Positions 5,197 through 32,341 of a stretch of 38,116 bases of DNA are shown here, piece by piece. Numbering within the stretch: position 1 is the first letter of the stretch; every line of letters begins with the position of its first letter. The notes beneath the pieces were generated by a model that saw nothing but the letters and a program-made list of their open reading frames with translations, had not been told where the DNA came from and did not search any database. Both the position numbers and the translations under genes were made by a program. The DNA comes from a virus (taxonomy: Duplodnaviria; Heunggongvirae; Uroviricota; Caudoviricetes). The DNA lies in IMG/VR virus record IMGVR_UViG_2802429226_000004, positions 1 to 38,116 of that record, one strand, 5' to 3'.

Positions 5197-5275
5197 GTTA
5201 CCGTTGAGGTAATAATTATGCTTATTTGGTTTGGTGTCAATAGATATGAGTTAAAAAAATTACCCGTAAGGTAAT
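5197..5275 (-). promoter_or_regulatory. OL/PL-like region: two 17-bp inverted-repeat operators (5197-5213, 5259-5275) flanking a leftward promoter-like element
   Basis: GTTACCGTTGAGGTAAT and ATTACCCGTAAGGTAAT; the minus strand between them reads TTGACA-N17-AATTAT; directly upstream of the leftward operon. Confidence 0.5.
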
Positions 5276-5284
5276 CTATCTGGC

Positions 5285-5309
5285 AATAAAAAAGCCGCCA
5301 TGAGGCGGC
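5285..5309 (-). terminator. rho-independent terminator downstream of the repressor gene
   Basis: GCCGCC-ATGA-GGCGGC hairpin; on the minus strand it is followed by a T-run (plus strand AATAAAAAA precedes it). Confidence 0.6.
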
Positions 5310-5331
5310 TTACTTACTGAAAACTATAGTT

Positions 5332-5916
5332 TTATTGTTTGCTTTTTTCGTTCTGGTTGATGACAAATTCAATGTAACTTTCGATCTTTGCTTTCTCGGT
5401 TTCGGGTAACAATGCGTAGCGTGAGCGGTCATAGTTGATAGTCGCAGGGTCGTGCGGGTGAATCAGTAGTTCATATCCGTGACGCCCGAATGCGGATGCA
5501 ACATTCTCCAGGGTGGAAATGGAAACGCTGACCTCATTGTTTAACAGGCGGCTGATTGTCACCTGGGCGACGCCGGATGCGCGGTGAAGTTTTCCCTGTG
5601 TTGAAAGGTCGCGGCTTTCGCTCATCCAGCGTTCCAGGTTGTGAGCCGCCAGCTGACCTATATCGCTCGGGCCGACAGGCTGAAAACCCTCCTGAGAAAG
5701 CGAACGATCAATATCAAGCCAGTTACGGGGTTTATTGGCGGCAGCTTCAATTTTTCGTGCAACCTGGTCGCCGATAACCTTCTTGCCAAGAGCCCAGCGG
5801 TTTACCAGATTTGCCTGAGTTCCAAGTTTTTCTGCCATCCGCGTCTGAACACCATTGAATTCACGGTCGATCAAGTCGTTGAGATTTTGCCTGCGGACGT
5901 CCTGGATACTTTTCAT
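5332..5916 (-). CDS. phage repressor (CI functional analogue) with two XRE-type HTH regions and no S24 peptidase domain
   Basis: 194 aa; N-terminal ...QTRMAEKLGTQANLVNRWALGKK... and a second ...SGVAQVTISRLLNNEVSVSISTLENVASAFG... HTH-like segment; divergent from a Cro-like gene across an operator-rich intergenic region. Confidence 0.75.
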   Translation of the reverse strand: MKSIQDVRRQNLNDLIDREFNGVQTRMAEKLGTQANLVNRWALGKKVIGDQVARKIEAAANKPRNWLDIDRSLSQEGFQPVGPSDIGQLAAHNLERWMSESRDLSTQGKLHRASGVAQVTISRLLNNEVSVSISTLENVASAFGRHGYELLIHPHDPATINYDRSRYALLPETEKAKIESYIEFVINQNEKSKQ

Positions 5917-5970
5917 TTTCTGGAAAATCGCCTCATATATGAATCAGTAGATGATTCAATTTAAAGCAAT

Positions 5971-6035
5971 ATTACCCAACAGGTAAATGCACCTCATAGG
6001 TAACTATCCTTGATTTTTGTTACCTTATGGGTGAA
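5971..6035. promoter_or_regulatory. OR-like operator/promoter region between repressor and Cro-like gene (three 17-bp sites)
   Basis: ATTACCCAACAGGTAAA (5971-5987), TGCACCTCATAGGTAAC (5988-6004), GTTACCTTATGGGTGAA (6019-6035); TTGATT-N17-GAATAT promoter-like element overlaps the third site and faces the Cro-like gene. Confidence 0.5.
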
Positions 6036-6070
6036 TATTTATTATCTGAAATAAATATCAGGCAATAGCT

Positions 6071-6301
6071 ATGAGCGATAACGGACATTTCGATTTCAAA
6101 AAGCACTGGCTTGCACTTACTCCGGATGAGCGTGAAGCCTTCGCACAGGAAGCCGGAACGACGAGTCACTATATCCAGACTCACTTAACAGGTAAGCGCA
6201 AAATGCCAGGTAAAGTATTGATGAATGGGCTTTTTAAAGCCTGTAAAACAAGACAATGGCTGCGCTCAAAAGCAGAACTGGCATACTTCTTCTACTCATG
6301 A
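6071..6301 (+). CDS. Cro-like / YdaS-like small HTH regulator
   Basis: 76-aa ORF divergent from the repressor and followed by a terminator; LTPDEREAFAQEAGTTSHYIQTHLTGKR looks HTH-like. Confidence 0.55.
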   Translation: MSDNGHFDFKKHWLALTPDEREAFAQEAGTTSHYIQTHLTGKRKMPGKVLMNGLFKACKTRQWLRSKAELAYFFYS

Positions 6302-6322
6302 TATCCAGCCACAACCCTCTGT

Positions 6323-6348
6323 AGACCGCCATCCGGCGGTCTTTTCAT
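6323..6348 (+). terminator. rho-independent terminator after the Cro-like gene (tR1-like position)
   Basis: AGACCGCC-ATCC-GGCGGTCT hairpin followed by TTTTCAT. Confidence 0.6.
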
Positions 6349-6449
6349 ATCTATTCGCACCTTAAAGGTAATAAAAAACCAAATCTGGTTGATCAAATTT
6401 TCCAATTGTGCAAAATAGCCAATATCAATAACAAAAAGGGGCGGAAAAA

Positions 6450-6662
6450 TTGAAGATAGTAACCAGAATGGAGGCCGCAAAAGCCGGGTTAAATCGCTAT
6501 TTCACAGGAAAGCGGTGCCGTCACGGCCATCTCTCTGAAAGGTATGTTCTGAACGGAACATGTGTTGAATGTGCAATGAATAGCGCCAACCGCCATCGTA
6601 ATGAATTTGCTTGTGCACTAAAGAGTGCAAGAGGGGAAACCTATGGCAAGCAGCTGGATTAA
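6450..6662 (+). CDS. small zinc-ribbon protein (CII position); TTG start inferred
   Basis: 70 aa with C..H...C..C cluster (RCRHGH...CVECAM); AAGGGG 8 nt upstream of TTG at 6450. Confidence 0.4.
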   Translation: MKIVTRMEAAKAGLNRYFTGKRCRHGHLSERYVLNGTCVECAMNSANRHRNEFACALKSARGETYGKQLD

Positions 6663-7473
6663 GGTTGAAGTTATCACTCCTGATAAACCTGAAATTTTTC
6701 AGATAGCAGAAATTCTGGGTATTGATCCAGATGCTGTTCTTGGAAAGCTGGTTCGTATATGGGCATGGGCTGACCAGCAAACAATAGACGGTAACGCTGG
6801 CAGCGTTACAAAAGGAGTACTTGATAGACTCGCTTTTATTACAGGATTTGCTGACGCCCTCATTAGCGTCGGATGGCTTGCTTATCATGACGGCAAACTA
6901 ATTCTTCCAAACTTTGAGCGACACAATGGAGAATCATCGAAAAAACGTGCACTTACGAATAGAAGAGTGGCAGAGCATCGAAAACGAGTAACGCAAAAAG
7001 TAACGCCAACAGCGTTACAAAAGGAGTTACCAGAGGAAGAGGAAGAGGAAGATATATATAAAACCCCACACATAGCGCACGTGCGCGAGGGTGCTCCGAC
7101 CAGTGAAGCGAACAGTACGCCGTTGCAGGTGGCAGAACCTGAATTTCTGGATGGCCTGAGTGAACCCATCGGGAAATTTCCGATGACAGATGGCTGGCTA
7201 CCGTCGCCAGATTTTCGGCGGCGTGCTGCGCTGTGGGGAACGGCCCTGCCGGAACCGGAATTTACACCTGCTGAACTTGCTGCATTCCGGGATTACTGGA
7301 TGGCTGAGGGCAAAGTGTTCACGCAGGTTCAGTGGGAACAAAAATTCGCCAGGCACGTAAATCATATCAGGGGAAAATCAAAAAATGCCGGGAAAAGCGA
7401 TGAGCTTGACTGGAATAACACTGACTGGATAGAAGGGGTGTGGGATGAAATCAACTCCAGAACTTCTCAATGA
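6643..7473 (+). CDS. replication initiation protein (lambda O functional analogue), contains the putative origin
   Basis: ATG at 6643 with GAGGGGA RBS; position directly upstream of a P-like gene; internal iteron-like DNA repeats and a Glu-run linker. Confidence 0.6.
   Translation: MASSWIKVEVITPDKPEIFQIAEILGIDPDAVLGKLVRIWAWADQQTIDGNAGSVTKGVLDRLAFITGFADALISVGWLAYHDGKLILPNFERHNGESSKKRALTNRRVAEHRKRVTQKVTPTALQKELPEEEEEEDIYKTPHIAHVREGAPTSEANSTPLQVAEPEFLDGLSEPIGKFPMTDGWLPSPDFRRRAALWGTALPEPEFTPAELAAFRDYWMAEGKVFTQVQWEQKFARHVNHIRGKSKNAGKSDELDWNNTDWIEGVWDEINSRTSQ
6790..7063. repeat. putative replication origin: iteron-like repeats plus AT-rich tract inside the O-like gene
   Basis: 18-bp direct repeat CAGCGTTACAAAAGGAGT at 6802-6819 and 7010-7027, read in different codon frames; GTAACGC at 6792, 6988 and 7000; GAGGAA x3; then GATATATATAAAA at 7051-7063. 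Confidence 0.4.
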
Positions 7474-8221
7474 GTACGATCGCTTACGTGAGCATGGTGT
7501 TGCTGTGCATGAAGAGCGGCGTGACAGCAATGGCAAAAAGGAGCAGGTTGCTAGAATTTTCAATGAACTATTTGTCCAGTTACAGGCTGCATTTCCTGCA
7601 AGCGTTTCGACCATAAGGGAGCAGAACAAACTTAATGAATTCCGTAAGCAATGGATGCTTGCGTTTCTGGAGAATGGGATCACTACAATGGAACAGGTTA
7701 ACGCTGGTATGCGCCACGCCCGCGCCAGTGAATCTCCGTTCTGGCCGTCGCCAGGGCAATTCATCAAGTGGTGCAAAGACAGCAAGATGGTTCTTGGCGT
7801 CACCATTGACGATGTGATGGCGGAGTTTCACCGGTACAGCAAGGAAAAAAGTTTATATCCTGGTGGTCCAGAAAGATTCCCGTGGCGGCATCCGGTTATG
7901 TACTGGGTCGTATGTGATACCCGCCGTGCAATGTATCAGCGCCAGCTTAGCGAGATTGAAGTTGAGAAACACGCGCGCAGGCTGCTCGATGATTGGGCGA
8001 AAAAGGTGGCTTCCGGACAGCAGATACCCGATCCGGTGATCAGCATACAGGCAAAGCCAGAGCCCATGAGTACACCTCCGGACACAGGGAGAGACGTTTA
8101 CCACCCACCAGGGCGAAGTTTCGGGTGCATGCCTAACGCCGCCACCCTTGGGGGAATAACACCGGCTCAGTGGCTGATGGAGGAATACAGGCGGGGAAAG
8201 GCGGCAGGATTTATCAAGTAA
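7445..8221 (+). CDS. replication protein P-like helicase loader
   Basis: 258 aa; follows the O-like gene with overlap; contains ...SPFWPSPGQFIKWCK..., which I recall as a lambda-P-family signature. Confidence 0.7.
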   Translation: MKSTPELLNEYDRLREHGVAVHEERRDSNGKKEQVARIFNELFVQLQAAFPASVSTIREQNKLNEFRKQWMLAFLENGITTMEQVNAGMRHARASESPFWPSPGQFIKWCKDSKMVLGVTIDDVMAEFHRYSKEKSLYPGGPERFPWRHPVMYWVVCDTRRAMYQRQLSEIEVEKHARRLLDDWAKKVASGQQIPDPVISIQAKPEPMSTPPDTGRDVYHPPGRSFGCMPNAATLGGITPAQWLMEEYRRGKAAGFIK

Positions 8222-8225
8222 TACC

Positions 8226-8247
8226 AGCGCGATAGCGCATTTTTTTA
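8226..8247 (+). terminator. weak rho-independent terminator after the replication genes
   Basis: GCGC-GATA-GCGC short stem followed by ATTTTTTT. Confidence 0.35.
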
Positions 8248-8292
8248 CGTCTCAACAATTACCTATCAGGTAATAAAATATTCTAAACTCTA

Positions 8293-8682
8293 TTGATTTC
8301 GTGTCTTATGTGGTTTTTAATTACCTTAGAGGTAAATCATGAGAAAACAGATACAGGCTCTTGGTCGACTCAAAACAGGCCAGATGAACAAAACAGAATC
8401 TGCGTATTGCCAGCACCTTGGCTGCGTAAACGTGCAGGGGAAATCGCCTGGTATCGATTCGAGGGTATCAAGCTGCGGTTAGCTAATAACACGTTCTATA
8501 CGCCAGATTTCGCTGTGATGCTCGCCACCGGCGAGATGGAACTGCACGAAGTGAAAGGTTTCTGGACCGACGACGCCAGGGTGAAAACCAAAGTCGCCGC
8601 AGATCAGTATCCGTTCCGAATCATCGGGGTAACGGTTAAGCCAAAGAAAGCAGGTGGTGGCTGGAACATCGAAGAGTTCTGA
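8293..8682 (+). CDS. DUF1064-like phage protein; probable true start at ATG 8339 in a different frame (apparent frameshift)
   Basis: C-terminal LRKRAGEIAWYRFEGIKLRLANNTFYTPDFAVMLATGEMELHEVKG is DUF1064-like; the GAGG-ATG at 8339 opens MRKQIQALGRLKTGQMNKTESAY in the +1 frame relative to the rest of the gene. Confidence 0.5.
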   Translation: MISCLMWFLITLEVNHEKTDTGSWSTQNRPDEQNRICVLPAPWLRKRAGEIAWYRFEGIKLRLANNTFYTPDFAVMLATGEMELHEVKGFWTDDARVKTKVAADQYPFRIIGVTVKPKKAGGGWNIEEF

Positions 8683-8743
8683 ATCGACGATCTTTTTAGT
8701 TATCAATGTAATCAATAAGTTATGTGGATAAGCGAGGGTAAAG

Positions 8744-9223: not shown

Positions 9224-9537
9224 CGATCACAAAACAACGGGTAGAAGAAATCATATTCCGCATTGAAATGTATGGGCATGGTGCAGGGTATACCGCCGAA
9301 GAGGTTTATGACCTGGCTGTACTGGCGCTGAATTTATCAAATATCGCAAACCTGAAGCGATACGAGCTTGATATGGATGGTTGTGACTCGTTCGGTCAGG
9401 ATTGTGGCGCTGACATGACTGAAGATTCTGATGGCGATTATGTCCTGTTTGATGACGTGGTTAAGTTGTTTGAGTTTGATACAACCACTCAGAAGCTAGA
9501 AAGCCCAGCAAAGGAGTCAACCAGTGAGCAAAATTAA
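9220..9537 (+). CDS. hypothetical acidic phage protein
   Basis: 105-aa ORF, ATGA-coupled to the upstream gene, GGGAGGTGA RBS. Confidence 0.5.
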   Translation: MTITKQRVEEIIFRIEMYGHGAGYTAEEVYDLAVLALNLSNIANLKRYELDMDGCDSFGQDCGADMTEDSDGDYVLFDDVVKLFEFDTTTQKLESPAKESTSEQN

Positions 9538-11482: not shown

Positions 11483-11756
11483 CCTGCAACTTGCCGTCAA
11501 AGGTGAATACTTCGATGCCATGATTCGCGGAGAGAAAACGGAAGAGTATCGCTTGTGTAATGACTACTGGAATAAGCGAATTATGTTACGCGAGTATGAC
11601 CGCCTGATTATCACAAAGGGATATCCGAAGCGCGACGACTCCAGTCGCAGAATTGATGTTCCGTATGGAGGATATGAAGTGAAAACAATCACACACCCCC
11701 ACTTCGGTGATAAACCGATAAAGGTTTACGCGATAAAGGTGAATATTGATGGCTAA
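11475..11756 (+). CDS. ASCH/DUF3850-like small protein
   Basis: 93 aa, GTG start after AGGAGG; LAVKGEYFDAMIRGEKTEEYR...RLIITKGYPK pattern resembles the ASCH-like fold. Confidence 0.5.
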   Translation: MANLQLAVKGEYFDAMIRGEKTEEYRLCNDYWNKRIMLREYDRLIITKGYPKRDDSSRRIDVPYGGYEVKTITHPHFGDKPIKVYAIKVNIDG

Positions 11757-12087
11757 ATCAGCAGCAGAGCGCAAAGCCGCTCAGAGAGCCAGACAAGCTG
11801 CATCTGGTGTGCGTAAGCTGGAGATTGTGCTTGATGCTCAGGAAATTGAAATGCTTGAGCGTAACTGTGCCGCGCGTCGCCCCGGGCGTGCGCCTTACGA
11901 ATTTGGTGAGTATATAGCGTTACTTATCCGCCAGGATGATGCACGCGTGCGCGGGCGTATAAAATCGATCAGCAGAAAACGTTGCGGTAAGTGCGGCGAG
12001 AGAGTTCCAGTTAATTCATGCCCGTGTAATGGTGACTCGCAATGCTGGGTGACTAAAGGCTGGCATGAAACGAAATTAATAGTGTGA
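11749..12087 (+). CDS. zinc-finger protein, candidate late-gene regulator
   Basis: 112 aa; C-terminal CGKCGERVPVNSCPCNGDSQC Cys4 cluster; last gene before a strong terminator and the terminase operon. Confidence 0.5.
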   Translation: MAKSAAERKAAQRARQAASGVRKLEIVLDAQEIEMLERNCAARRPGRAPYEFGEYIALLIRQDDARVRGRIKSISRKRCGKCGERVPVNSCPCNGDSQCWVTKGWHETKLIV

Positions 12088-12135
12088 CATGTCACGAGTA
12101 GATTATGCATGATGAATTTGATGTGTTTTGAATAC

Positions 12136-12162
12136 TGCCGCCAACTATGGCGGCTTTATTTT
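12136..12162 (+). terminator. rho-independent terminator between early/accessory genes and the late operon
   Basis: CTGCCGCC-AACTAT-GGCGGC hairpin followed by TTTATTTT. Confidence 0.7.
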
Positions 12163-12172
12163 GCATGGTACT

Positions 12173-12207
12173 ATTACCACAACGGTAACTATTACCACGG
12201 TGGTTAT
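12173..12207. promoter_or_regulatory. two tandem 17-bp inverted repeats abutting the terminase small subunit start
   Basis: ATTACCACAACGGTAAC (12173-12189) and ATTACCACGGTGGTTAT (12191-12207), same family as the OL/OR operators. Confidence 0.45.
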
Positions 12208-12802
12208 GATGCCTGCTGAACCTAAAACCTATAAACGCAAATCAACGCAATTTAAGCCACTAACAGCAATGCAGGAGGCTTATTGCCAGTCATACATCAA
12301 AACGCCTGAAAACCAGACTCAGGCAGCGATTAACGCAGGATTCTCCCCAAATACAGCGGCAGTTAAAGCCAGCGTCATGATGCGCGATGAACGCATTCAA
12401 AAACGGATTGCCGAGTTGATGGAAGAGCGCAACAAACGAATGCGCGTCAGTGCTGATTACGTTCTCATGCGCCTGGTGGAGATCGACCAGATGGACGTGA
12501 TCGATATCCTCAACGACGATGGGAGCCTTAAACCAATCCGTGAGTGGCCGAAAATCTGGCGCACTACGCTTAGTGGCTTTGATCTGTCATCGACCATCAT
12601 GAACATGAACGAGGATTCGATAGAGACAATCCTCAAAAAAATTAAATGGCCTGACAAGGTGAAGAACCTTGAGCTTATTGGTAAGCATGTTGATGTCAAC
12701 GCGTTCAAAGAACGTCTGGATGTTAATGTGAATGTGACAATTGCTGATCGCATAGCAGCAGCTAGGAAGCGACTCAAAGAACGTCAGGATGGTAATCAGT
12801 GA
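12208..12802 (+). CDS. terminase small subunit
   Basis: 198 aa from ATG 12208; directly precedes and overlaps the large subunit gene; the upstream TTG extension was rejected because it runs through the terminator hairpin. Confidence 0.65.
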
Positions 12803-14316: not shown

Positions 14317-14350
14317 TAAAACAAAGCCAGCTCGTAGGCTGGCTGTTTGT
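14317..14350. terminator. bidirectional rho-independent terminator between the terminase gene and the reverse-strand moron
   Basis: AGCCAGC-TCGTAG-GCTGGCT hairpin with T-rich tracts on both strands. Confidence 0.6.
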
Positions 14351-14364
14351 GACATGTCACGGTG

Positions 14365-14736: not shown

Positions 14737-14934
14737 AATCTCACCTTAAAAAAATGCCCGGCGAACCGGGCGAACTGGAAGCAATGAGTTATGCCTTCCG
14801 TGGCTGTACTGGTTTACAGCATGAAGTCATCGCAATGGCGTCCTGCTGTAAAAAGGGCGGTGATAGTCCTTCAAGGGAAACCATCACCGCCAAGCCCCTG
14901 GAACTTCTGGCATCACGGTCCTTAGGCGTGATTC

Positions 14935-15011
14935 TGGCGTGGCATGCAGGATTCGAACCTGCGACCAACCGCTTAGAAGGCGGTTGCTCTGTCCAGCTGA
15001 GCTAATGCCAC
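14935..15011 (-). tRNA. tRNA-Arg (anticodon UCU)
   Basis: Hand-folded 77-nt cloverleaf on the minus strand: acceptor GUGGCAU/AUGCCAC, D-arm GCUC/GAGC, anticodon stem ACCGC/GCGGU with loop CUUCUAA, T-arm GCAGG-UUCGAAU-CCUGC, discriminator G and encoded CCA. Confidence 0.85.
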
Positions 15012-15332: not shown

Positions 15333-15411
15333 CTTACCTGAAAGGTAATAATTAGTGCGTTAAATGTCAAGTATCTACGATAAATAAATCACATGTGGTT
15401 AAATTGGTAAT
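15333..15411 (+). promoter_or_regulatory. late-operon control region: operator-like 17-mer plus ACATGTGGTT-N5-GGTAAT element upstream of the portal operon
   Basis: CTTACCTGAAAGGTAAT at 15333-15349; ACATGTGGTT at 15391-15400; GGTAATAAT at 15406-15414. Confidence 0.4.
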
Positions 15412-15438
15412 AATTTAATTGCGTACGGAGTCATTGAT

Positions 15439-15659: not shown

Positions 15660-17339
15660 ATGGCGGAAACAACTAAAGAGCGATTGAACAAACAGTTCGC
15701 ACAACTTGAAAGCGAGCGTCAGTCGTTCGAGCCGCACTGGCGCGAGTTGAGTGATTACATCAACCCGCGTGGTTCCCGCTTTCTGACTTCTGAGGTCAAC
15801 CGTAACGATCGACGCAATACACGCATTATTGATTCGACCGGGACTATGGCGGCGCGCACTCTCGCCAGCGGCATGATGTCAGGCATCACAAGCCCCGCGC
15901 GTCCGTGGTTTCGCCTGGCTACGCCAGATCCTGAAATGATGGATTATGGCCCTGTTAAGTTGTGGCTTGAGGCGGTGCAGAACCGCATGAACGATATGTT
16001 CAATAAGTCGAATCTCTACCAGTCTCTTCCGCAGTTATACGGAAGCCTCGGCACATACAGCACTGGTGCAATGGCGGTGCTGGAGGATGACGAGGACATC
16101 ATTCGCACAATGCCATTCCCGATAGGCAGTTACTACCTGGCTAACTCACCTCGTGGCAGTGTGGACACCTGTTTTCGCAAGTTCTCTATGACTGTTCGTC
16201 AGCTTGTTCAGGAGTTCGGGCTAAATAACGTCAGCAAATCCGTAAAAAGCATGTGGGAAAGCGGCACCTACGAGAAGTGGATTGAAGTGATGCATTCGGT
16301 TTACCCGAACATTGACCGCGATACATCGAAGCTGGATAGCAAGAACAAGCCATTCAAATCGGTTTATTACGAGGTCGGTGGCGATAACGACAAGTTGTTG
16401 CGTGAGTCCGGATTCGATGAGTTTCCAATTATGGCTCCGCGCTGGGAAGTTAACGGCGAAGATGTTTATGGATCATCATGCCCGGGTATGCTGGCGCTTG
16501 GACCTGTTAAGGCATTGCAGCTTCTCCAGAAGCGCAAGTCGCAGTTGATTGATAAAGCCACCAATCCTCCGATGGTTGCTCCGACTTCCCTCAAGAATCA
16601 GCGCGCCTCCCTTCTTCCTGGCGACATCACGTATATCGATCAGATTACTGGTCAGGATGGCTTCAGGCCTGCTTATCTGGTTAACCCCAGTACAGCAGAT
16701 TTGGTGGCAGACATTCAGGACACTCGTCAAATCATTAACAGCGCCTACTTTGTCGATCTGTTCATGATGTTGCAGAACATCAATACCCGCTCGATGCCTG
16801 TTGAAGCGGTGATCGAAATGAAAGAAGAAAAACTTCTGATGTTGGGGCCGGTTCTGGAGCGTCTGAACGACGAATGTCTTAATCCTCTCATTGACCGCGC
16901 TTTCTCGATGATGGTGCGTAAAAACATGCTGCCGCCACCGCCTGACGCGATGGAAGGCATGCCACTGAAGGTCGAATACATTTCCGTCATGGCTCAGGCG
17001 CAGAAGTCTATCGGCCTGTCCAGTCTGGCGTCCACGGTTAACTTCATTGGTCAACTTGCACAAGCGAAACCAGAAGCTCTCGACAAACTCAACGTTGATC
17101 AGGCGATCGATGCATTCGCTGATATGTCTGGAGTGTCTCCAACCGTCATTGTTCCGCAGGAACAGGTTGAGCAGGCTCGCCAGCAACGGGCACAGCAGCA
17201 ACAGCAGCAACAAATGATGGCGATGGGGATGGCGGCGGCACAGGGTGCCAAGACGCTAAGCGAAGCTAAAACTTCGGATCCGAGTGTTTTGTCAGCTATG
17301 GCGAATGCAGTTAGTGGTCAGGGTGGGCAATCACAATGA
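15660..17339 (+). CDS. portal (head-to-tail connector) protein, T7 gp8-like
   Basis: 559 aa; C-terminal Gln/Ala/Met-rich tail ...QQQQQQQMMAMGMAAAQGAKT... resembles the T7 gp8 C-terminus; gene order portal-scaffold-capsid. Confidence 0.8.
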   Translation: MAETTKERLNKQFAQLESERQSFEPHWRELSDYINPRGSRFLTSEVNRNDRRNTRIIDSTGTMAARTLASGMMSGITSPARPWFRLATPDPEMMDYGPVKLWLEAVQNRMNDMFNKSNLYQSLPQLYGSLGTYSTGAMAVLEDDEDIIRTMPFPIGSYYLANSPRGSVDTCFRKFSMTVRQLVQEFGLNNVSKSVKSMWESGTYEKWIEVMHSVYPNIDRDTSKLDSKNKPFKSVYYEVGGDNDKLLRESGFDEFPIMAPRWEVNGEDVYGSSCPGMLALGPVKALQLLQKRKSQLIDKATNPPMVAPTSLKNQRASLLPGDITYIDQITGQDGFRPAYLVNPSTADLVADIQDTRQIINSAYFVDLFMMLQNINTRSMPVEAVIEMKEEKLLMLGPVLERLNDECLNPLIDRAFSMMVRKNMLPPPPDAMEGMPLKVEYISVMAQAQKSIGLSSLASTVNFIGQLAQAKPEALDKLNVDQAIDAFADMSGVSPTVIVPQEQVEQARQQRAQQQQQQQMMAMGMAAAQGAKTLSEAKTSDPSVLSAMANAVSGQGGQSQ

Positions 17340-19830: not shown

Positions 19831-20166
19831 ATGTCAGGTGAGAAACCAAGATACCGCGTTCTGCGCCTCTCTCATATCCATAACACTCTGTGGCCGGAGG
19901 GGGCAGAAATCGAATACGAAGGTGAGCCTGGTAGCGCACTGGAACCTGTTAACGATGCAGCCAGACAGGCAAAAGCAAAGGTTGCAGGAAAGGTGACTAT
20001 GGCAGCAACCAGCACCAAAATCATCAACGATGTGTCAGATGATGGTGAACTGGATAAGCTCCGTGAAGAGTACGAATTGCTCTTTAACGAGAAGCCACAC
20101 CATAACGCCAAAGCCGAAACGCTCCGCGAGAAGATCGCAGATAAGCGTAAAGAACTGGGCGTGTAA
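19831..20166 (+). CDS. hypothetical virion-module protein
   Basis: 112 aa from ATG 19831 with AAGGTG RBS. Confidence 0.45.
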   Translation: MSGEKPRYRVLRLSHIHNTLWPEGAEIEYEGEPGSALEPVNDAARQAKAKVAGKVTMAATSTKIINDVSDDGELDKLREEYELLFNEKPHHNAKAETLREKIADKRKELGV

Positions 20167-27138: not shown

Positions 27139-28937
27139 GTTACTTTGGCCTTAATCCAGTAAACCAGAATCAGCAGCTTGACGAAGCAGCATCAAATCCA
27201 GTTGGCTTTAACAGCGATGTTGGTTTTTTCGACAATGCTGTAGGAGCGGCATTGTCTGGTTTGTACTCCGGGCTGGTGGCAAAGCCAGATCAGTTGCTAT
27301 GGGCAGGGATGGATAAAATCGTATCCCCGATTGCTCAGCTTGTTAACGAAAACACCTCGCTCAATGACACTTCAGTTTCATACATTGCTGAGCAGAGAAA
27401 ACTAGCAGAGCAGCAGGTTAAGCGGCTGACGCCTGATGCCGCGACAACCGGAACCGCCGGGCAGGTCCTTTATGGGTTGTTCGATATGGGCGGGCAGGCT
27501 GTTGTCGGTACAACGCTCGGTGGTCCGGTCGGAGGTGCTGCGGCGGTAACTTCTCTACAGGGTTTTTCTGAGTTTGAACGGTTGACAGCACAGGGTGTTG
27601 ATTTCAGGACGGCGCAGGAAGCGGGATTAGTGCAGGGTATTACTGCTGGTGCCGGAACACTGATCCCTATGAGCCTCGGGTTACGTGCTGGTGGTGCGCT
27701 GGCGGAAGGTGTGGCGGCTCAGCTTGCGCGGACGGGTGAAAGTTCAGTGCGACGCGCCGCAGCAACAGCAGTACGTGCAACGCCAGATATTGCCTATGCC
27801 GCAGGTACAAATATTGCGTTCGGTATGGCACAGCGTGGGCTTACTGCAAAAACGCTTCGTGATGGTGGCTATAGCGAAATGGCTAACCAGTATGATGTGT
27901 TGGATCGACAGGCAATTGCTATTGATGCTGTTCTTGGGGTGGCGTTTGGTGGTGTCGGCAGATTTATTAACTCTCGCGGCGAGTCTACAAGCGCACCAAA
28001 TTTTTCACCAGTTGATATTGATGCTGCACTGGCGGCGAATGCCGCTCATCATGCTGAAATTGATATTGCTCCCGGCGTTCCGATCAACGTGCTTTCGCGT
28101 AATTCGCACATTCAGGCTCTGCGAAAAGCCATGTCTGATGTTAGCCAGGGGAGACCTGTAGACGTTGCCAGCATTGTTGAGTCTGCATCTTTCAGTGAAA
28201 TTCCTGGGCGCAAGAGTCTGCTGTCTCAGGCAGTTAATGAGGCTCTGTCATCTGTAGATGATGGAGTAACGGCGCGCGCTATAGAAAATCGGTTGCTTGA
28301 AGAACAGGCCGCGCAGCTTTTGTCGCGTGGCGATAGAAAGGTTTACCAGTCTGAAATCGCTAATAGCCAACGAATTATTGAAAATCTCACTGAACAGCGC
28401 GCACAAATTCTTGCAGAAGAGCCAACCGGTAGCGGTAAGGCTTTATCTCGTGCTAGATCAGATAAACAGGCCAGACTTCGCGATATTGACCAACGAATCC
28501 GGCAGGCACAAGAACGCCTGGAATTTTCTCGTAACGCGTTGGCGCCGCACGAGCCTGGAGGTCAGTTTTTTGAAGCTCGAGCAGAACTGGCACGACGACA
28601 GCAGGCAGAAAGTGAACTTAATGCTCAGGCTGTTTCATTCTATAAAACAGCAGAGGTCAGGACGCCAGAAGAAGTAGCTCCTTTTGAGCCCGGTAAGATA
28701 TTGCAACAGACAGAACAAAAAATGATGGCAGATCCGGCAGGAGATATTGATCTGCGTATAGCTGAAGACTCGCTGCTTGAATCACCTGACATGATAATCA
28801 CCGTGCTGGATGATGATGGTAATCCACAATCGCGCAGTGCGCGTGAAGTACTGGATGAAGCGAACAGGGAAAGTGAGCAGGCAATACAGGATTCCAGCCT
28901 GTTTGATGTTGCTGTGGCGTGTTTCTTGAGAGGTTAA
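27135..28937 (+). CDS. internal virion / ejection protein
   Basis: 600 aa, Ala/Gly-rich with long helical C-half; ATGA overlap with the upstream gene. Confidence 0.6.
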   Translation: MSYFGLNPVNQNQQLDEAASNPVGFNSDVGFFDNAVGAALSGLYSGLVAKPDQLLWAGMDKIVSPIAQLVNENTSLNDTSVSYIAEQRKLAEQQVKRLTPDAATTGTAGQVLYGLFDMGGQAVVGTTLGGPVGGAAAVTSLQGFSEFERLTAQGVDFRTAQEAGLVQGITAGAGTLIPMSLGLRAGGALAEGVAAQLARTGESSVRRAAATAVRATPDIAYAAGTNIAFGMAQRGLTAKTLRDGGYSEMANQYDVLDRQAIAIDAVLGVAFGGVGRFINSRGESTSAPNFSPVDIDAALAANAAHHAEIDIAPGVPINVLSRNSHIQALRKAMSDVSQGRPVDVASIVESASFSEIPGRKSLLSQAVNEALSSVDDGVTARAIENRLLEEQAAQLLSRGDRKVYQSEIANSQRIIENLTEQRAQILAEEPTGSGKALSRARSDKQARLRDIDQRIRQAQERLEFSRNALAPHEPGGQFFEARAELARRQQAESELNAQAVSFYKTAEVRTPEEVAPFEPGKILQQTEQKMMADPAGDIDLRIAEDSLLESPDMIITVLDDDGNPQSRSAREVLDEANRESEQAIQDSSLFDVAVACFLRG

Positions 28938-28942
28938 ATTAA

Positions 28943-31417
28943 ATGAGACAGGAATGTATACAAGCGGTCCAGCAGGCGGCGCAGCGCACGTTAACGGCGC
29001 GAGAAATACAGAACATTGAAGACCGCATTTATCGAAATATGCGCTCCATTGCTCGTGATGACCCGATGTCGTGGCGACAACTTTCCGAATCAGAGCGGCT
29101 GTATCGTGCAGCACAATTGGCATCTGAAGAATTACAGCGAGAAGCGGCATTAAAGAAACGTCGTGTGGCCCTCACTATAGCCGCACGTCAGAGATTGGAT
29201 AAATTTATCAATAGCTATCAAGGGGCTGATGGGAAACTTGGCGCTCTTAACCGTACTATTGCTTTTAATGCAGACGGTAAATCGAATTTCCTCTCTGTTG
29301 AATCCAGAACAAAAGCCACCCGTGATTATGCATTGAGTCAATTGCAGGAGGCATTCGAAGCAGTTGATCCTCGCTTTTTTGGTCTGTTTGAAGATGAAGC
29401 GGGCGTACGTGACCTGGTATATGAAATGCGGGGGCAAAATACTGGCAATGCTAAAGCAAGAAAAGGTGCTAAGGCGTGGAGAGAAGTGACAGAGCTACTG
29501 CGCCGCCGGTTTAATGATGCTGGTGGGGACATTGGCTATCTCGAAAACTGGGGGATCCCTCAACATCATTCTATGGAAAAGGTTGGGGCGGTATCAAAAG
29601 ATAAATGGGTTAGCGATGTTATAGGTAAGCTGGATCGCAAATATTATACCCGAGCCGATGGACAACTGATGAACGATGCCGAGTTGTCTGCATTTCTTGG
29701 AGAGGCTTATAACACGATCGCTACTGGTGGGCTGAATAAGCTTACTGATACCGGAATGCGAATTTCCGGCGCACGTGCTAACCGTGGTAATGCATCACGA
29801 CAGATACATTTCAAAGATGCAGATTCCTATCTGCAATATCAGCAACTTTATGGCGATCGCTCTCTATGGGAAATCATGGTCGGTCACCTGGAAGGTATCA
29901 GTAAAGATATTGCACTGGTGGAAACATATGGTCCAAACCCCGATCATGTTTTCCGCTCTCTTCTTGATCAGGTGAAGGCAGAAACGGCAACAGCTAACCC
30001 GAGTAAAACCGGTAAAGTCGAGCGGCTGGCGAACAACACAGAGAATCTGTACAACTTTATTTCCGGAAAGACACAGCCTGTAGCGAATCCGCACATCGCG
30101 CGATGGTCTGACAATATCCGCAACTGGCTGGTTGCCAGCAGACTCGGATCCGCGTTGCTGTCATCGTTCTCTGATCTTGGAACCATGTATCTGTCTGCGA
30201 AGGTTACCAACCTTCCAATGAACCAGTTATTCCGCAACCAGCTTGAAGCTATGGACCCAACGAACCGTACAGAACTTGCGCGGGCGCGCCGCGCTGGTCT
30301 GGCGATGGAATCTCTACTTGGCAGCGTTAACCGCTGGGCGATGGATAATATGGGGCCGTCTGTGTCTCGTTGGGCTGCAACGGCGGTAATGCGTGCCAGT
30401 GGGCTTACAGCATGGTCAGATGCGCACAAGCGCGCCTATGGCGTAACCATGATGGGAAGCCTGGGAGAAGTAGTGTCACGGACACCAGACCTTCGTCGCC
30501 TCGATGACTCTGATTTTCGTATCCTGAAAAGCAAAGGGATTACTGACACAGACTGGAGCGTATGGAAGTTGGCGCAACAGGAGGACTGGGGGAACGGTAA
30601 TAATACGATGCTGACACCGGAAAGCATTATGCGTATCCCTGATTCAGCAGTTAAACATCTTGGTGAGCCTGAACGCGTGAAATTTGAGGCAATGCGTAAA
30701 CTGCTCGGTGCCGTAACTGAAGAAGTTGATATGGCTGTTATTACACCGGGAGCACGTGAGCAACTGATAACCGGTTCTGGTATTCAGCGTGGAACATGGA
30801 AAGGTGAATTAACGAGAAGTGTTTTCCTGTTTAAATCGTTCCCTATCTCGGTTGTTATGCGTCACTGGTCACGCGCTATGGGTATGCCGTCTGCTGGTGG
30901 GCGTGCGGCATATATTGCGACGTTTATTGCCAGTACGACCATTCTTGGCGCTTTGTCGCAACAACTTAACGACCTTGCGTCTGGTCGTAATCCTCGAGAG
31001 ATGACAGGAGAAGATGCCGCAAAATTCTGGCTTGGTGCTCTACTGAAAGGTGGTGGTCTTGGCCTTTACGGTGACTTTTTATTGTCAGATCACACTAGGT
31101 ACGGAAGCGGCGCGCTGGCGTCGATGCTTGGCCCGGTAGCTGGTCTAGTTGATGACGTAGTGAAGATTGCTCAGGGCATACCGTTAAATGCTGTGGAAGG
31201 GAAGAGTGAGCAGACTGGTGGTGATCTGGTGAAGCTGGGGAAAGGTTTGATGCCTGGTGCGAATCTCTGGTACTTGAAGGCGGCTCTCGATCACATGATC
31301 TTTAACCAGATGCAGGAGTATTTTTCACCAGGCTATTTGCGTAAAATGGAGCAACGTTCGAAGAAAGAGTTTAACCAGACATACTGGTGGCGACCTCAGG
31401 ATGTCACTCCGCAATAA
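28943..31417 (+). CDS. large internal virion / ejection protein (gp16 position)
   Basis: 824-aa ORF, last of the large ejection-protein series before the tailspike region. Confidence 0.6.
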   Translation: MRQECIQAVQQAAQRTLTAREIQNIEDRIYRNMRSIARDDPMSWRQLSESERLYRAAQLASEELQREAALKKRRVALTIAARQRLDKFINSYQGADGKLGALNRTIAFNADGKSNFLSVESRTKATRDYALSQLQEAFEAVDPRFFGLFEDEAGVRDLVYEMRGQNTGNAKARKGAKAWREVTELLRRRFNDAGGDIGYLENWGIPQHHSMEKVGAVSKDKWVSDVIGKLDRKYYTRADGQLMNDAELSAFLGEAYNTIATGGLNKLTDTGMRISGARANRGNASRQIHFKDADSYLQYQQLYGDRSLWEIMVGHLEGISKDIALVETYGPNPDHVFRSLLDQVKAETATANPSKTGKVERLANNTENLYNFISGKTQPVANPHIARWSDNIRNWLVASRLGSALLSSFSDLGTMYLSAKVTNLPMNQLFRNQLEAMDPTNRTELARARRAGLAMESLLGSVNRWAMDNMGPSVSRWAATAVMRASGLTAWSDAHKRAYGVTMMGSLGEVVSRTPDLRRLDDSDFRILKSKGITDTDWSVWKLAQQEDWGNGNNTMLTPESIMRIPDSAVKHLGEPERVKFEAMRKLLGAVTEEVDMAVITPGAREQLITGSGIQRGTWKGELTRSVFLFKSFPISVVMRHWSRAMGMPSAGGRAAYIATFIASTTILGALSQQLNDLASGRNPREMTGEDAAKFWLGALLKGGGLGLYGDFLLSDHTRYGSGALASMLGPVAGLVDDVVKIAQGIPLNAVEGKSEQTGGDLVKLGKGLMPGANLWYLKAALDHMIFNQMQEYFSPGYLRKMEQRSKKEFNQTYWWRPQDVTPQ

Positions 31418-31426
31418 GGAAGTGTT

Positions 31427-31600
31427 GTGTTTTTAATTATTTTGAGTGTGATAATTTCTGGTGTATTGTTATTTATTGACCGCTACAAATATTTTCTTAA
31501 CCCTCAGACTCAAGCTATTTGCTGGTTCATCTTTGTTGTGCAGGGAGTAGTTCTTGTTGCAAGCCTTATTGAGGGGAGGCCTCTTATTTTTACTGGGTAA
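31427..31600 (+). CDS. small hydrophobic membrane peptide (57 aa, GTG start)
   Basis: Hand-translated VFLIILSVIISGVLLFIDRYKYFLNPQTQAICWFIFVVQGVVLVASLIEGRPLIFTG with two predicted TM segments; AAGGA 6 nt upstream; AT-rich; not in the ORF track. Confidence 0.4.
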   Translation: MFLIILSVIISGVLLFIDRYKYFLNPQTQAICWFIFVVQGVVLVASLIEGRPLIFTG

Positions 31601-31612
31601 ATAGGTGACTAC

Positions 31613-31909
31613 ATGCAAGCTATAGGATTCATTGTTTATATCGTCGTTGGTCTTTTTCAGTTGGCAGCAATTATGGCTGGGCTTGAATCATGGTGGGGAT
31701 TGCACTGGATAATTGCAGCCCCCATTGCTTTCATCGTGAGCTATATTCCATTTGTTGGAGCGATTGTTGGTATGGTTGGCGCTGTGGATGTATGGCGGTG
31801 GGAGTGGTGGCAGGCTGGCCTTCTCTTCTTTGGTGGGATCATCTTTGCTATTGTCTGCGGTGGAATGTCATCATTTTTCGAATGGCTATCATTCAGAAAA
31901 GGTACGTGA
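31613..31909 (+). CDS. small integral membrane protein (98 aa, Trp-rich)
   Basis: AGGTGA RBS; three hydrophobic segments (..IVYIVVGLFQLAAIMAGL.., ..IIAAPIAFIVSYIPFVGAIVGMVGAV.., ..LLFFGGIIFAIVCGG..); followed by palindrome and terminator. Confidence 0.55.
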   Translation: MQAIGFIVYIVVGLFQLAAIMAGLESWWGLHWIIAAPIAFIVSYIPFVGAIVGMVGAVDVWRWEWWQAGLLFFGGIIFAIVCGGMSSFFEWLSFRKGT

Positions 31910-31917
31910 CATGTCAC

Positions 31918-31944
31918 AGGCCGCTTTCGCGGCCTTTTCTTTAT
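31918..31944 (+). terminator. rho-independent terminator after the membrane protein genes
   Basis: AGGCCGC-TTTC-GCGGCCT hairpin followed by TTTCTTTAT. Confidence 0.65.
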
Positions 31945-32213
31945 GTGGTTTGTTTTCGTAATTGTTCGGCACAATAGTCGAGATGTGTTTGCAGATCCTG
32001 CATAGACATCTGTGAGCTGGTGACGTAGTTAATCAGTGCAGTCAGTTCGGCAAGTGGGCCATCGACATTAAATCCATCCTTATCGAGATCCCGGAGTAAT
32101 TTCATCAAGTGCGATCCCTCCACCAGTGACCTGACGCCTCCCGGCGTGTGAATCCTTTCGGTAAATCCGTCTTCCAGTGGATAGTGATACTGCTGCATCT
32201 TAATCTTCTCCAT
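31941..32213 (-). CDS. hypothetical protein (90 aa), reverse-strand moron
   Basis: Minus-strand ORF with its own upstream intergenic region; no family recognised. Confidence 0.5.
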   Translation of the reverse strand: MEKIKMQQYHYPLEDGFTERIHTPGGVRSLVEGSHLMKLLRDLDKDGFNVDGPLAELTALINYVTSSQMSMQDLQTHLDYCAEQLRKQTT

Positions 32214-32274
32214 GCAATAACTGTATATTTATACAGTAGCAAATAATTTGTTTGCTATCCAGCACGTTTTGCAA

Positions 32275-32341
32275 ATTACCTGAAAGGTAATATCTATTCA
32301 TATTCACAGTCTTTCTATCCATATGTGGTTTTTCAGGTAAT
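32275..32341 (+). promoter_or_regulatory. tailspike control region: operator-like 17-mer plus ATATGTGGTT-N5-GGTAAT element
   Basis: ATTACCTGAAAGGTAAT at 32275-32291; ATATGTGGTT at 32321-32330; GGTAAT at 32336-32341. Confidence 0.4.

What the first reader, a model, noticed from the sequence alone, without database searches (positions are those of the whole stretch)
5197..32291. One 17-bp inverted repeat (ATTACC-N5-GGTAAT) at 12 or more intergenic sites, in the immunity region and at late-operon starts
The same dyad with ACC-N5-GGT core occurs at 5197-5213 and 5259-5275 (OL), 5971-5987, 5988-6004 and 6019-6035 (OR), 6356-6372 (after the Cro terminator), 8258-8274 and 8320-8336 (before the DUF1064-like gene), 12173-12189 and 12191-12207 (abutting the terminase small subunit start), 15333-15349 (before the portal operon) and 32275-32291 (before the tailspike gene). 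The last two share the full 16-mer TTACCTGAAAGGTAAT. Operators of lambdoid repressors are normally confined to OL/OR; a genome-wide set of cognate sites at operon starts is what mycobacteriophage stoperators and P1 C1 sites look like. This suggests the two-HTH repressor (5332-5916), or another factor, controls late and accessory operons directly.
Basis: seen in the sequence. Interest (0 to 1): 0.7.

Follow-up and report, generated by a model that had tools for sequence, protein, structure and literature searches.

The report
Dispersed repressor operators of epsilon15-like prophage
The repeated 17-bp palindrome is real and is most likely the binding site of the prophage's master repressor, placed at the start of most lytic gene blocks rather than only beside the repressor gene; the same sites are already marked in the reference record of the related phage epsilon15.

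Summary
ATTACC-N5-GGTAAT occurs 9 times with at most 1 mismatch, against 0.04 expected, and all 9 lie in the 6.5% of the window that is intergenic.

The window is a phiV10/epsilon15-like (Uetakevirus) prophage, not a lambdoid one. Its repressor is a full-length homologue of the solved SPC32H Rep (PDB 5D50). An Ant antirepressor gene with a LexA box lies next to the 32275 site.

The same dyad sits at the same syntenic places in 13 further relatives from six enterobacterial genera. The epsilon15 GenBank record already labels seven of these sites 'protein_bind: repressor'.

At PL, at the promoter after the replication genes, and at terS, the dyad starts inside the -10 hexamer and covers the predicted transcription start. 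Partner dyads lie 62 bp or 17-18 bp away. The portal and tailspike dyads instead lie about 70-80 bp upstream of a separate conserved promoter-like box.

Direct control by the repressor is therefore well supported by sequence, but binding was not shown here. The arrangement resembles P1 C1 operators more than stoperators. Novelty is low.

The parts
5197..5213 (.). OL promoter-proximal dyad GTTACCGTTGAGGTAAT. It spans about -8 to +9 of PL.
   Evidence: PL is called on the minus strand as TTGACA/17/AATTAT, 5240 to 5212. The last two bases of the -10 are the first two of the dyad.
5212..5240 (-). PL, the leftward early promoter (-35 TTGACA, 17-bp spacer, -10 AATTAT).
   Evidence: 10 of 12 matches. 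It lies between the two OL dyads.
5259..5275 (.). OL distal dyad ATTACCCGTAAGGTAAT, 62 bp from 5197.
   Evidence: The 62-bp spacing recurs 18 times in 11 genomes.
5332..5916 (-). rep, an SPC32H-type repressor of 194 aa: N-terminal DNA-binding domain, middle HTH-like domain and C-terminal tetramerisation region.
   Evidence: PDB 5D50, E=3.5e-42 over residues 1-190. Pfam finds HTH_3 and no peptidase domain. NLVNRW is invariant in 7 relatives.
5971..5987 (.). OR dyad ATTACCCAACAGGTAAA. It overlaps the -35 and spacer of the predicted leftward rep promoter.
   Evidence: The rep promoter was read by eye (TTTACC/17/TTAAAT on the minus strand) and is an inference.
5988..6004 (.). Weak OR dyad TGCACCTCATAGGTAAC, 17 bp from 5971.
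   Evidence: Core only, weight-matrix score 8.9. The syntenic epsilon15 site GTTACCATAACGGTAAT has 1 mismatch.
6019..6035 (.). Weak OR dyad GTTACCTTATGGGTGAA inside the PR spacer.
   Evidence: PR candidates are TTGATT/17/GAATAT (by eye) or TTGTTA/17/TATTAT.
6071..6301 (+). Cro-like gene (76 aa), the other candidate binder of the dyad.
   Evidence: PHROG 35, transcriptional repressor. AGTTSHYIQ.HLT is invariant in 7 relatives.
6356..6372 (.). Weak dyad CGCACCTTAAAGGTAAT just after the cro terminator (6323-6342).
   Evidence: Syntenic copies with 2 mismatches occur in phiV10, Tyrion and epsilon15.
8258..8274 (.). Distal dyad of the promoter that follows the replication genes; it lies just after a terminator.
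8293..8321 (+). Predicted promoter 'P_nin' (-35 TTGATT, 17-bp spacer, -10 TTTAAT).
   Evidence: The blocks TATTGA and T.TGG.T.T.AATTACC are conserved in 8 genomes.
8320..8336 (.). Proximal dyad ATTACCTTAGAGGTAAA, spanning about -8 to +9 of P_nin. Its right arm (GAGG) serves as the ribosome-binding site of the next gene.
   Evidence: It is 62 bp from 8258.
12137..12154 (+). Intrinsic terminator that ends the early-right operon.
12166..12174 (+). Predicted extended -10 promoter of the terminase operon (TGgTACTAT).
   Evidence: TG.TA.TAT directly abutting the dyad is conserved in window, TL-2011b, PAT1, BUCT554, the Klebsiella prophage, epsilon15 and SPC32H.
12173..12189 (.). terS dyad 1, ATTACCACAACGGTAAC, spanning about -8 to +9.
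12191..12207 (.). terS dyad 2, ATTACCACGGTGGTTAT. It covers the ribosome-binding site (GGTGG) and ends 1 nt before the ATG at 12209.
15333..15349 (.). Single dyad upstream of the portal operon.
   Evidence: It is the only conserved island in an upstream flank that has otherwise diverged.
15390..15413 (+). Conserved promoter-like block CACATGTGGTT-N7-TAATAA, 49 bp from the dyad centre.
31941..32198 (-). ant, a small antirepressor gene.
   Evidence: 88% identical to SPC32H Ant.
32221..32236 (.). LexA box CTGTATATTTATACAG, overlapping the predicted ant promoter.
   Evidence: CTGTAT...TACA is invariant in 7 genomes.
32275..32291 (.). Perfect dyad between the divergent ant and tailspike promoters.
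32320..32346 (+). Conserved promoter-like block CATATGTGGTT-N7-TAATAGAAT upstream of the tailspike gene.

Best explanation
The dyads are most likely the operators of the prophage's SPC32H-type repressor Rep (5332-5916). They are probably shared with the Cro-like protein.

The operators are not confined to the immunity region. One or two copies sit at the head of each rightward lytic transcription unit in this window except the lysis cassette, whose dyad is missing here although relatives have one. Each unit begins after a terminator.

Proposed action (inferred from sequence):
- At PL, at the promoter after the replication genes and at the terminase promoter, the proximal dyad begins inside the -10 hexamer and covers the start site. 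Bound Rep would therefore exclude RNA polymerase.
- A partner dyad lies 62 bp upstream (about 6 helical turns, with the promoter in between) or 17-18 bp downstream.
- Published work describes Rep as a tetramer with two separate DNA-binding pairs. One tetramer could therefore clamp a pair of dyads.
- The single dyads upstream of the portal and tailspike operons would act from a distance, by looping or by blocking upstream elements. The tailspike dyad may also affect the neighbouring ant promoter.
- Induction would go through LexA, then Ant, then release of Rep, which would free all units at once.

Shown here: the sites, their statistics, their conservation, and their overlap with predicted promoters.

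Inferred: which protein binds, where transcription actually starts, and any looping.
For: 1. Enrichment and exclusive intergenic placement.
2. The motif at OL/OR beside rep and cro is identical to the motif at the other sites.
3. The same motif sits at the same syntenic places in phiV10, TL-2011b, epsilon15, SPC32H, Tyrion, BUCT554, PAT1, a Klebsiella prophage, BUCT711 and prophages of Superficieibacter, Erwinia, Klebsiella, Citrobacter and Scandinavium. The four complete genomes scanned with shuffle controls gave 15-22 hits against about 1 expected; the rest are.
4. In the alignments the dyad arms are invariant while the central 5 bp and the flanks vary. Information content is concentrated in TTACC/GGTAA.
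5. Departures from consensus break the symmetry 128 times and keep it 5 times. This indicates half-site recognition by a protein rather than hairpin selection.
6. Promoter overlap at PL, P_nin and P_terS.
7. Spacings between neighbouring dyads are quantised: 62 bp 18 times, 17-18 bp 13 times.
8. Rep matches PDB 5D50 over its full length. Its N-terminal motif NLVNRW is invariant even though overall identity falls to 42%.
9. Published descriptions: Rep binds palindromic sites as a tetramer whose DNA-binding pairs come from different dimers (PMC9638917). It has a tetramerisation domain of a type linked to DNA looping, with domain pairs about 100 A apart (PMC9986798).
10. The epsilon15 records label seven homologous sites 'protein_bind, repressor'.
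11. Overexpressing the phage ZX5 repressor, which is 99.5% identical to this window's Rep, cut endolysin and holin transcripts by 99.99% and 99.97% (PMC9782041). This is consistent with the model but does not show direct control.
12. Rep-type loci always carry the dyads. Five loci with only a distant N-terminal-domain homologue, and phiSG1 (epsilon15-like portal, no Rep), carry none.
Against: - No binding or transcript data were available. The primary SPC32H and epsilon15 papers could not be read.
- The Cro-like protein is conserved as strongly as the Rep N-terminal domain, so comparison cannot say which of the two uses the distant sites.
- The motif never changes across the group, so there is no true covariation test. 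Co-occurrence is confounded with shared ancestry.
- The portal and tailspike dyads do not overlap the predicted core promoters.
- This window lacks the lysis-operon dyad that relatives have, so that site is dispensable.
- All promoters are predictions.
Confidence: 0.75

Rival explanations
1. The sites outside the immunity region are used mainly by the Cro-like protein (6071-6301), or by Cro and Rep in competition. They would tune early, middle and late expression during lytic growth rather than keep the prophage silent.
For: The Cro-like protein is 58-84% identical across the group and has an invariant HTH-like stretch, AGTTSHYIQ.HLT. It falls in a PHROG annotated as transcriptional repressor. 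In classical switches Cro and the repressor share operators (established knowledge of lambda and P22).
Against: No data support this. It does not exclude Rep binding. The paired spacing of 62 and 17-18 bp fits a tetramer with two binding units, as published for Rep; nothing is known of the oligomeric state of this Cro-like protein.
Confidence: 0.1
2. The dyads act as roadblocks, like stoperators. Bound repressor would stop polymerases that read through from upstream units, rather than block initiation.
For: Several dyads lie immediately downstream of terminators: 6356, 8258, 12173 and 5259. terS dyad 2 lies in the predicted 5' untranslated region, and so does the third OL dyad of epsilon15.
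Against: The sites are symmetric and have no orientation. The proximal dyads keep a fixed register with the -10 hexamers in all genomes. That register is expected for control of initiation and is unnecessary for a roadblock.
Confidence: 0.07
3. A different phage regulator, for example the 113-aa 'transcriptional regulator' at 11746-12087, binds the late-region dyads as an activator. The resemblance to OL/OR would then reflect shared half-sites only.
For: The portal and tailspike dyads sit at about -70 to -80, a typical activator position. They lie next to a separate conserved promoter-like box that has no good -35.
Against: Late and immunity sites share one indistinguishable consensus over all 12 arm positions. 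The terS and nin dyads overlap the start site, which is a repressor position.
Confidence: 0.05
4. The repeat is not a protein site. It could be chance, an RNA hairpin, or a recombination or packaging signal.
For: It is a short palindrome that could in principle form a 6-bp hairpin.
Against: Enrichment is more than 200-fold over expectation. There are no compensatory changes, with symmetry broken 128 times against 5. The central bases vary freely, and many copies lie upstream of the predicted starts.
Confidence: 0.02

Closest known systems
Predicted repressor-binding sites annotated in Salmonella phage epsilon15 (AY150271.2 / NC_004775.2)
   Same: Same consensus, ATTACC-N5-GGTAAT. Same syntenic places: before terS, before the portal operon, between gp19 (ant) and the tail fibre gene, at OL, and after the replication genes.
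   Different: The record marks 7 sites. It omits OR, the second members of the terS and nin pairs, and the sites upstream of the lysis genes and of int. The closer relative phiV10 has no such annotation. I could not confirm whether any of the sites was tested experimentally.
SPC32H Rep-Ant-LexA switch (PDB 5D50 and 5D4Z; Kim and Ryu 2013, Kim et al. 2016, cited from secondary sources and from my own knowledge)
   Same: Full-length Rep homologue. Ant is 88% identical. A LexA box lies at the ant promoter. The same dyads occur in SPC32H itself.
   Different: Overall Rep identity is only about 43%. PMC9986798 states that the structural mechanism of repression has not been extensively characterised. 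I could not check whether the dispersed operators have been described in print.
Phage P1 C1 repressor and its dispersed operators (own knowledge)
   Same: One repressor with many operators spread around the genome, many of them overlapping promoters of separate operons.
   Different: P1 operators are asymmetric 17-bp sites bound by a monomer of an unrelated protein. Here the sites are symmetric dyads, and the published tetramer could bridge pairs.
Mycobacteriophage L5/Bxb1 stoperators (own knowledge)
   Same: Many copies of the repressor's site lie outside the immunity region, in short intergenic gaps.
   Different: Stoperators are asymmetric 13-bp sites oriented with transcription, and they block elongation. 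These sites are symmetric and keep a fixed register with -10 hexamers.
Streptomyces phage phiC31 conserved inverted repeats bound by the c repressor (own knowledge)
   Same: A 17-bp conserved inverted repeat at many promoter-associated sites around the genome, bound by the immunity repressor.
   Different: Unrelated repressor and host. In phiC31 the sites accompany a special class of early promoters.

Membership tests
SPC32H-type Rep/Ant/LexA lysogeny switch of Uetakevirus | Repressor homologous over its full length to SPC32H Rep | tested here: met
   phmmer against PDB: 5D50_A, E=3.5e-42, query residues 1-190.
SPC32H-type Rep/Ant/LexA lysogeny switch of Uetakevirus | Repressor lacks a LexA/CI-type self-cleavage (S24 peptidase) domain | tested here: met
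   Pfam reports only HTH families for the 194-aa protein.
SPC32H-type Rep/Ant/LexA lysogeny switch of Uetakevirus | Small Ant antirepressor encoded divergently from the tailspike gene | tested here: met
   Window 31941-32198 (minus strand) is 88% identical to SPC32H Ant. The gene order is the same.
SPC32H-type Rep/Ant/LexA lysogeny switch of Uetakevirus | LexA box overlapping the ant promoter | tested here: met
   CTGTATATTTATACAG at 32221-32236, conserved in 7 genomes. The promoter overlap is a prediction.
SPC32H-type Rep/Ant/LexA lysogeny switch of Uetakevirus | Rep tetramer binds the palindromic operator | not testable with these tools
   Known only from secondary descriptions.
Dispersed repressor sites as annotated in epsilon15 | Same consensus sequence | tested here: met
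   Epsilon15 has 18 hits at up to 2 mismatches against 1.15 expected. The annotated sites are perfect ATTACC-N5-GGTAAT.
Dispersed repressor sites as annotated in epsilon15 | Same positions relative to homologous genes | tested here: met
   Alignments of the terS, nin, portal and ant-tailspike regions.
Mycobacteriophage stoperators | Asymmetric site oriented with the direction of transcription | tested here: not met
   The sites are symmetric dyads. The logo is palindromic and both arms are conserved.
Mycobacteriophage stoperators | Sites lie inside transcribed regions and act on elongation | tested here: inconclusive
   Most proximal dyads overlap predicted start sites. Only terS dyad 2 is clearly downstream. 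There are no transcript data.
P1 C1-type dispersed operators | Asymmetric 17-bp operator bound by a monomeric C1-family protein | tested here: not met
   The sites are symmetric dyads. The repressor is an HTH_3/SPC32H Rep-type protein. The P1 features are from my own knowledge.
Lambda-type OL/OR immunity region | Operators confined to the two sides of the repressor gene | tested here: not met
   Six of the nine strong sites lie 2.3-26 kb from rep.

The most novel reading that the evidence does not exclude
Uetakeviruses may run a flat, single-repressor regulon. One invariant operator specificity would be kept across all enterobacterial members because 15-20 dispersed copies cannot change together. 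A Rep tetramer would clamp dyad pairs 62 bp apart around sigma-70 promoters.

On top of this there may be a second, undescribed regulatory layer with two parts:
- the CATAT(G/A)NGGTT promoter box upstream of the portal, tailspike and lysis operons;
- the perfect palindrome GTGACATGTCAC at the 3' ends of three rightward operons.

Neither element is annotated in the records I inspected, and I ran no literature search for either.
Probability: 0.3. Interest if true: 0.55.

Novelty: already known. Interest (0 to 1): 0.3.

Why it matters
The sites indicate that this group of temperate podophages is not organised like lambda. A single repressor probably holds most of the separate lytic units directly, and one SOS-controlled antirepressor would release them together.

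This matters for predicting induction and gene leakage from phiV10/epsilon15-type prophages of E. coli O157, Salmonella and Klebsiella. It also matters for using their promoter and operator parts.

The idea itself is already in the epsilon15 record. What this analysis adds is detail that can be tested:
- the fixed register between the dyads and the -10 hexamers;
- the 62-bp pairing;
- the overlap with ribosome-binding sites;
- the genus-wide invariance of the site.

Tried and rejected
- **Primary papers.** I tried to read the epsilon15 genome paper and the two SPC32H papers by DOI, PMC id and PubMed id. None is held. Claims about Rep biochemistry therefore rest on secondary papers and on my own memory.
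- **Literature searches.** Full-text searches for the motif and for Uetakevirus operators found nothing relevant.
- **Covariation test.** I looked for relatives with a changed recognition helix. The genome-collection scan gave six more enterobacterial prophages with the same dyad. It also gave five distant homologues of the N-terminal domain only (Paraburkholderia, Hydrogenovibrio, Thiomicrospira). These have no such dyad and no obvious repeated palindrome of their own. They are too distant to be informative.
- **Mosaic test.** In the phage collection Rep occurs only in Uetakevirus-type genomes. The only relative with an epsilon15-like portal and no Rep is the decayed Sodalis element phiSG1, which has no dyads. 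That is one weak data point.
- **Hairpin or terminator reading.** Rejected, because there are no compensatory changes.
- **A fixed dyad-to-box distance at the late operons.** Rejected. The distances are 49, 37 and 40 bp.
- **A 62-bp partner half-site for the single dyads.** Present at the portal site (GGTAAT at 15406-15411) but not at the tailspike site, so it may be chance.
- **Technical limit.** Only the first locus fetched between two scripts reached the script folder, so L003 and L006-L008 were analysed with the pattern tool only.
Full report
**1. What the window is**

The window is a prophage about 96-98% identical in DNA to the Escherichia phages phiV10, vB_EcoP_ZX5, HEMP4, phiv142-3 and TL-2011b. 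These belong to the genus Uetakevirus, the epsilon15-like podophages.

The integrase gene starts at base 1, and the lysis genes end at 36767. DNA beyond that point looks like host flank.

- 5332-5916 (minus strand) is a repressor with two HTH-like regions;
- 6625-8221 encodes DnaT-like and lambda-P-like replication proteins;
- 12209-12802 is the small terminase subunit;
- 15660-17339 is the portal gene;
- 32395-34740 is the tailspike gene.

**2. The observation**

Nine sites have at most one mismatch to ATTACC-N5-GGTAAT. Simulated sequence gives a mean of 0.04 and never more than 1. All nine lie in the 6.5% of the window that I map as intergenic.

A weight matrix built from those nine scores them 15.4-24.9. 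The next best positions score 12.0 or lower. The weak sites 6356, 6019 and 5988 score 12.0, 11.6 and 8.9, which is within the range of coding-region hits. I accept them only because relatives have 1-2-mismatch copies at the same positions.

**3. Conservation**

The same dyad sits at the same places in 13 further genomes:
- phiV10 and TL-2011b;
- epsilon15 and SPC32H;
- Enterobacter phages Tyrion and BUCT554;
- Salmonella phage PAT1;
- a Klebsiella prophage;
- the deeper-branching Klebsiella phage BUCT711, whose portal is only 60% identical;
- prophages of Superficieibacter, Erwinia, Klebsiella, Citrobacter and Scandinavium.

The four complete genomes scanned with shuffle controls have 15-22 hits at up to two mismatches, against about one expected.

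The recurring places are:
- OL (2-3 sites) and OR (3 sites);
- just after the cro terminator;
- a pair after the replication genes;
- a pair abutting terS;
- one site upstream of the portal operon;
- one site between ant and the tailspike gene;
- one site upstream of the lysis genes;
- a 2-mismatch copy upstream of int;
- where a second, Bro-type antirepressor gene is present, one site upstream of it.

This window lacks the lysis-operon copy, because the DNA between the tailspike and lysis genes has been replaced. The int copy would lie just left of base 1.

In alignments of the intergenic regions, the arms TTACC/GGTAA are invariant. The central five bases are A/T-rich but free to vary, and the flanks diverge. 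Departures from consensus break the symmetry 128 times and preserve it 5 times. Selection therefore acts on each half-site, as expected for protein recognition, and not on base pairing.

**4. This is already annotated**

Both epsilon15 records carry seven 'protein_bind' features with bound moiety 'repressor':
- 12-27, before terS;
- 2931-2947, before the portal operon;
- 19895-19911, before the tail fibre gene;
- 32479-32494, 32554-32570 and 32616-32632, at OL;
- 35906-35922, after the replication genes.

These are the homologues of window sites 12173, 15333, 32275, 5197/5259 and 8258. The phiV10 record has no such features. I could not obtain the paper, so I cannot say whether the sites were tested.

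**5. Who binds**

The window's repressor matches the solved SPC32H Rep (PDB 5D50) over residues 1-190 with E=3.5e-42. It has no self-cleavage domain.

The gene at 31941-32198 (minus strand) is 88% identical to SPC32H Ant. A LexA box at 32221-32236 overlaps its predicted promoter. The window therefore carries the published Rep/Ant/LexA switch.

Secondary sources describe Rep as follows:
- It binds palindromic sites as a tetramer whose two DNA-binding pairs come from different dimers (PMC9638917).
- It has an N-terminal DNA-binding domain, a middle dimerisation domain and a C-terminal tetramerisation domain of a type linked to DNA looping, with domain pairs about 100 A apart (PMC9986798).
- The same paper says the structural mechanism of repression 'has not been extensively characterized'.

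Across seven Rep proteins that are only 42-78% identical, the N-terminal motif NLVNRW is invariant. This fits the invariant dyad arms. However, the Cro-like protein is conserved just as strongly (AGTTSHYIQ.HLT), so comparison cannot separate the two.

In the phage collection, Rep occurs only in Uetakevirus-type genomes. Loci with only a distant N-terminal-domain homologue have no dyads, and neither does phiSG1, which has an epsilon15-like portal and no Rep. This co-occurrence is consistent with Rep as the binder, but it is confounded with shared descent.

In phage ZX5, whose repressor is 99.5% identical to this one, repressor overexpression cut endolysin and holin transcripts by more than 99.9% (PMC9782041). 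That result is compatible with either direct or indirect control.

**6. How the sites sit on promoters (predictions)**

- **PL.** It is called as TTGACA/17/AATTAT on the minus strand, 5240 to 5212. The last two bases of the -10 are the first two of dyad 5197-5213, so the dyad covers about -8 to +9. Its partner, 5259, is 62 bp upstream.
- **P_nin.** After a terminator come dyad 8258, then TTGATT/17/TTTAAT, then dyad 8320 in the same register. This is again 62 bp, and all blocks are conserved in eight genomes. The right arm of the proximal dyad (GAGG) is the ribosome-binding site of the next gene.
- **P_terS.** After terminator 12137-12154 comes an extended -10, TGgTACTAT. It is conserved as TG.TA.TAT in seven genomes. 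Its final AT opens dyad 12173. Dyad 12191 follows 18 bp later, covers the ribosome-binding site GGTGG, and ends one base before the ATG.
- **OR.** The three sites overlap the predicted PR and rep promoters.
- **Spacing.** Across 11 genomes, distances between neighbouring dyads cluster at 62 bp (18 cases, plus three at 61 or 63), at 17-18 bp (13 cases), at 30-31 bp (5) and at 76 bp (4). The two 45-bp inter-dyad segments in this window are 76% A+T.

These features fit exclusion of RNA polymerase by a protein that engages two dyads at once.

**7. The portal and tailspike sites differ**

Dyads 15333 and 32275 lie 49 and 37 bp (centre to box start) upstream of a separately conserved block: CATAT(G/A)NGGTT, then 7 nt, then TAATAA or TAATAG. 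The dyad centre is therefore near -80 and -67 relative to the likely start.

Dyad 32275 also lies about 56 bp upstream of the predicted ant start, on the other strand.

At these two sites the mode of action (looping, interference with upstream elements, or something else) remains open. An activator role cannot be excluded.

**8. Comparison with known systems**

In function, this resembles the dispersed C1 operators of P1 and the conserved inverted repeats of phiC31: one immunity repressor with many promoter-associated sites (own knowledge).

It does not meet the defining features of stoperators, which are asymmetric and oriented. It does not meet those of a lambda-type OL/OR system either.

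It does meet every sequence-testable feature of the SPC32H-type switch and of the epsilon15 site set.

**9. Verdict**

The feature is real, strongly non-random and functionally meaningful. However, the feature is a known property of this phage genus and is annotated in its type member. I rate novelty as 'already known' and interest as low to moderate.

The testable additions are the dyad/-10 register, the 62-bp pairing, the overlap with ribosome-binding sites, the genus-wide invariance, and the two side motifs listed under 'noticed in passing'.

Noticed in passing
window 12084-12095, 14349-14360, 31906-31917: The perfect 12-bp palindrome GTGACATGTCAC occurs exactly three times, against 0.09 expected. 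Each copy lies at the 3' end of a rightward operon. Two copies overlap the TGA stop codon of the last gene (11746-12087 and 31613-31909). The third lies after terL. The same 2-3 syntenic copies are present in epsilon15, SPC32H, Tyrion, BUCT554, PAT1, the Klebsiella prophage and BUCT711. It is not annotated in the records I inspected, and its function is unknown.
   Followed up: partly
window 15390-15413, 32320-32346, 34899-34922, 8305-8315: A conserved box, CATAT(G/A)NGGTT followed 7 nt later by a -10-like hexamer, lies upstream of the portal, tailspike and lysis operons. A variant, CTTATGTGGTT, lies inside the P_nin spacer. Relatives have only 1-4 copies per complete genome, upstream of the portal, tailspike or lysis operons or just after cro. 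It looks like a distinct promoter class without a good -35.
   Followed up: partly
window 8339-8682: The DUF1064-like gene downstream of dyad 8320 is frameshifted relative to phiV10 gp45. The N-terminal 27 residues are in one frame and the rest in another, so it is probably a pseudogene or a sequencing indel.
   Followed up: yes
window 14935-15011 (minus strand): A tRNA-Arg (anticodon TCT) lies between the terminase and portal operons. It overlaps the ORF 14754-15005, which the phiV10 record annotates as a hypothetical protein, so that ORF is doubtful. SPC32H has a tRNA-Arg at the same place.
   Followed up: no
window 34741-34957: The region between the tailspike and lysis genes lacks the dyad present in phiV10 (24691), epsilon15 (24703), SPC32H (24781), Tyrion, PAT1 and BUCT554. 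It also lacks any O-antigen-modification gene on the minus strand. The segment appears to have been replaced together with the tailspike.
   Followed up: partly
L001 134-150, L002 26869-26885, L005 26881-26897 (just left of window base 1): A conserved 2-mismatch dyad, ATTACC(T/C)TAAAGGTATA, lies about 58 bp upstream of the integrase gene in the relatives where that region was seen. This suggests that the repressor also touches int expression. The window starts at the int start codon, so it does not include this site.
   Followed up: no
L002 20496-20512, L006 21392-21408, L009 8257-8273, L022 17376-17392: In relatives that carry an extra gene next to ant, a further dyad precedes that gene. The gene is a Bro-N or other antirepressor-type gene in phiV10, Tyrion and the Klebsiella prophage, and a DUF2335 gene in BUCT711. 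The window has no such gene and no such site.
   Followed up: no
window 5332-5916, compared with relatives: Rep proteins fall to 42% identity while the operator arms stay invariant across six enterobacterial genera. In the phage collection the Rep gene is never found outside this phage type. This contrasts with the freely exchanged immunity modules of lambdoid phages.
   Followed up: partly
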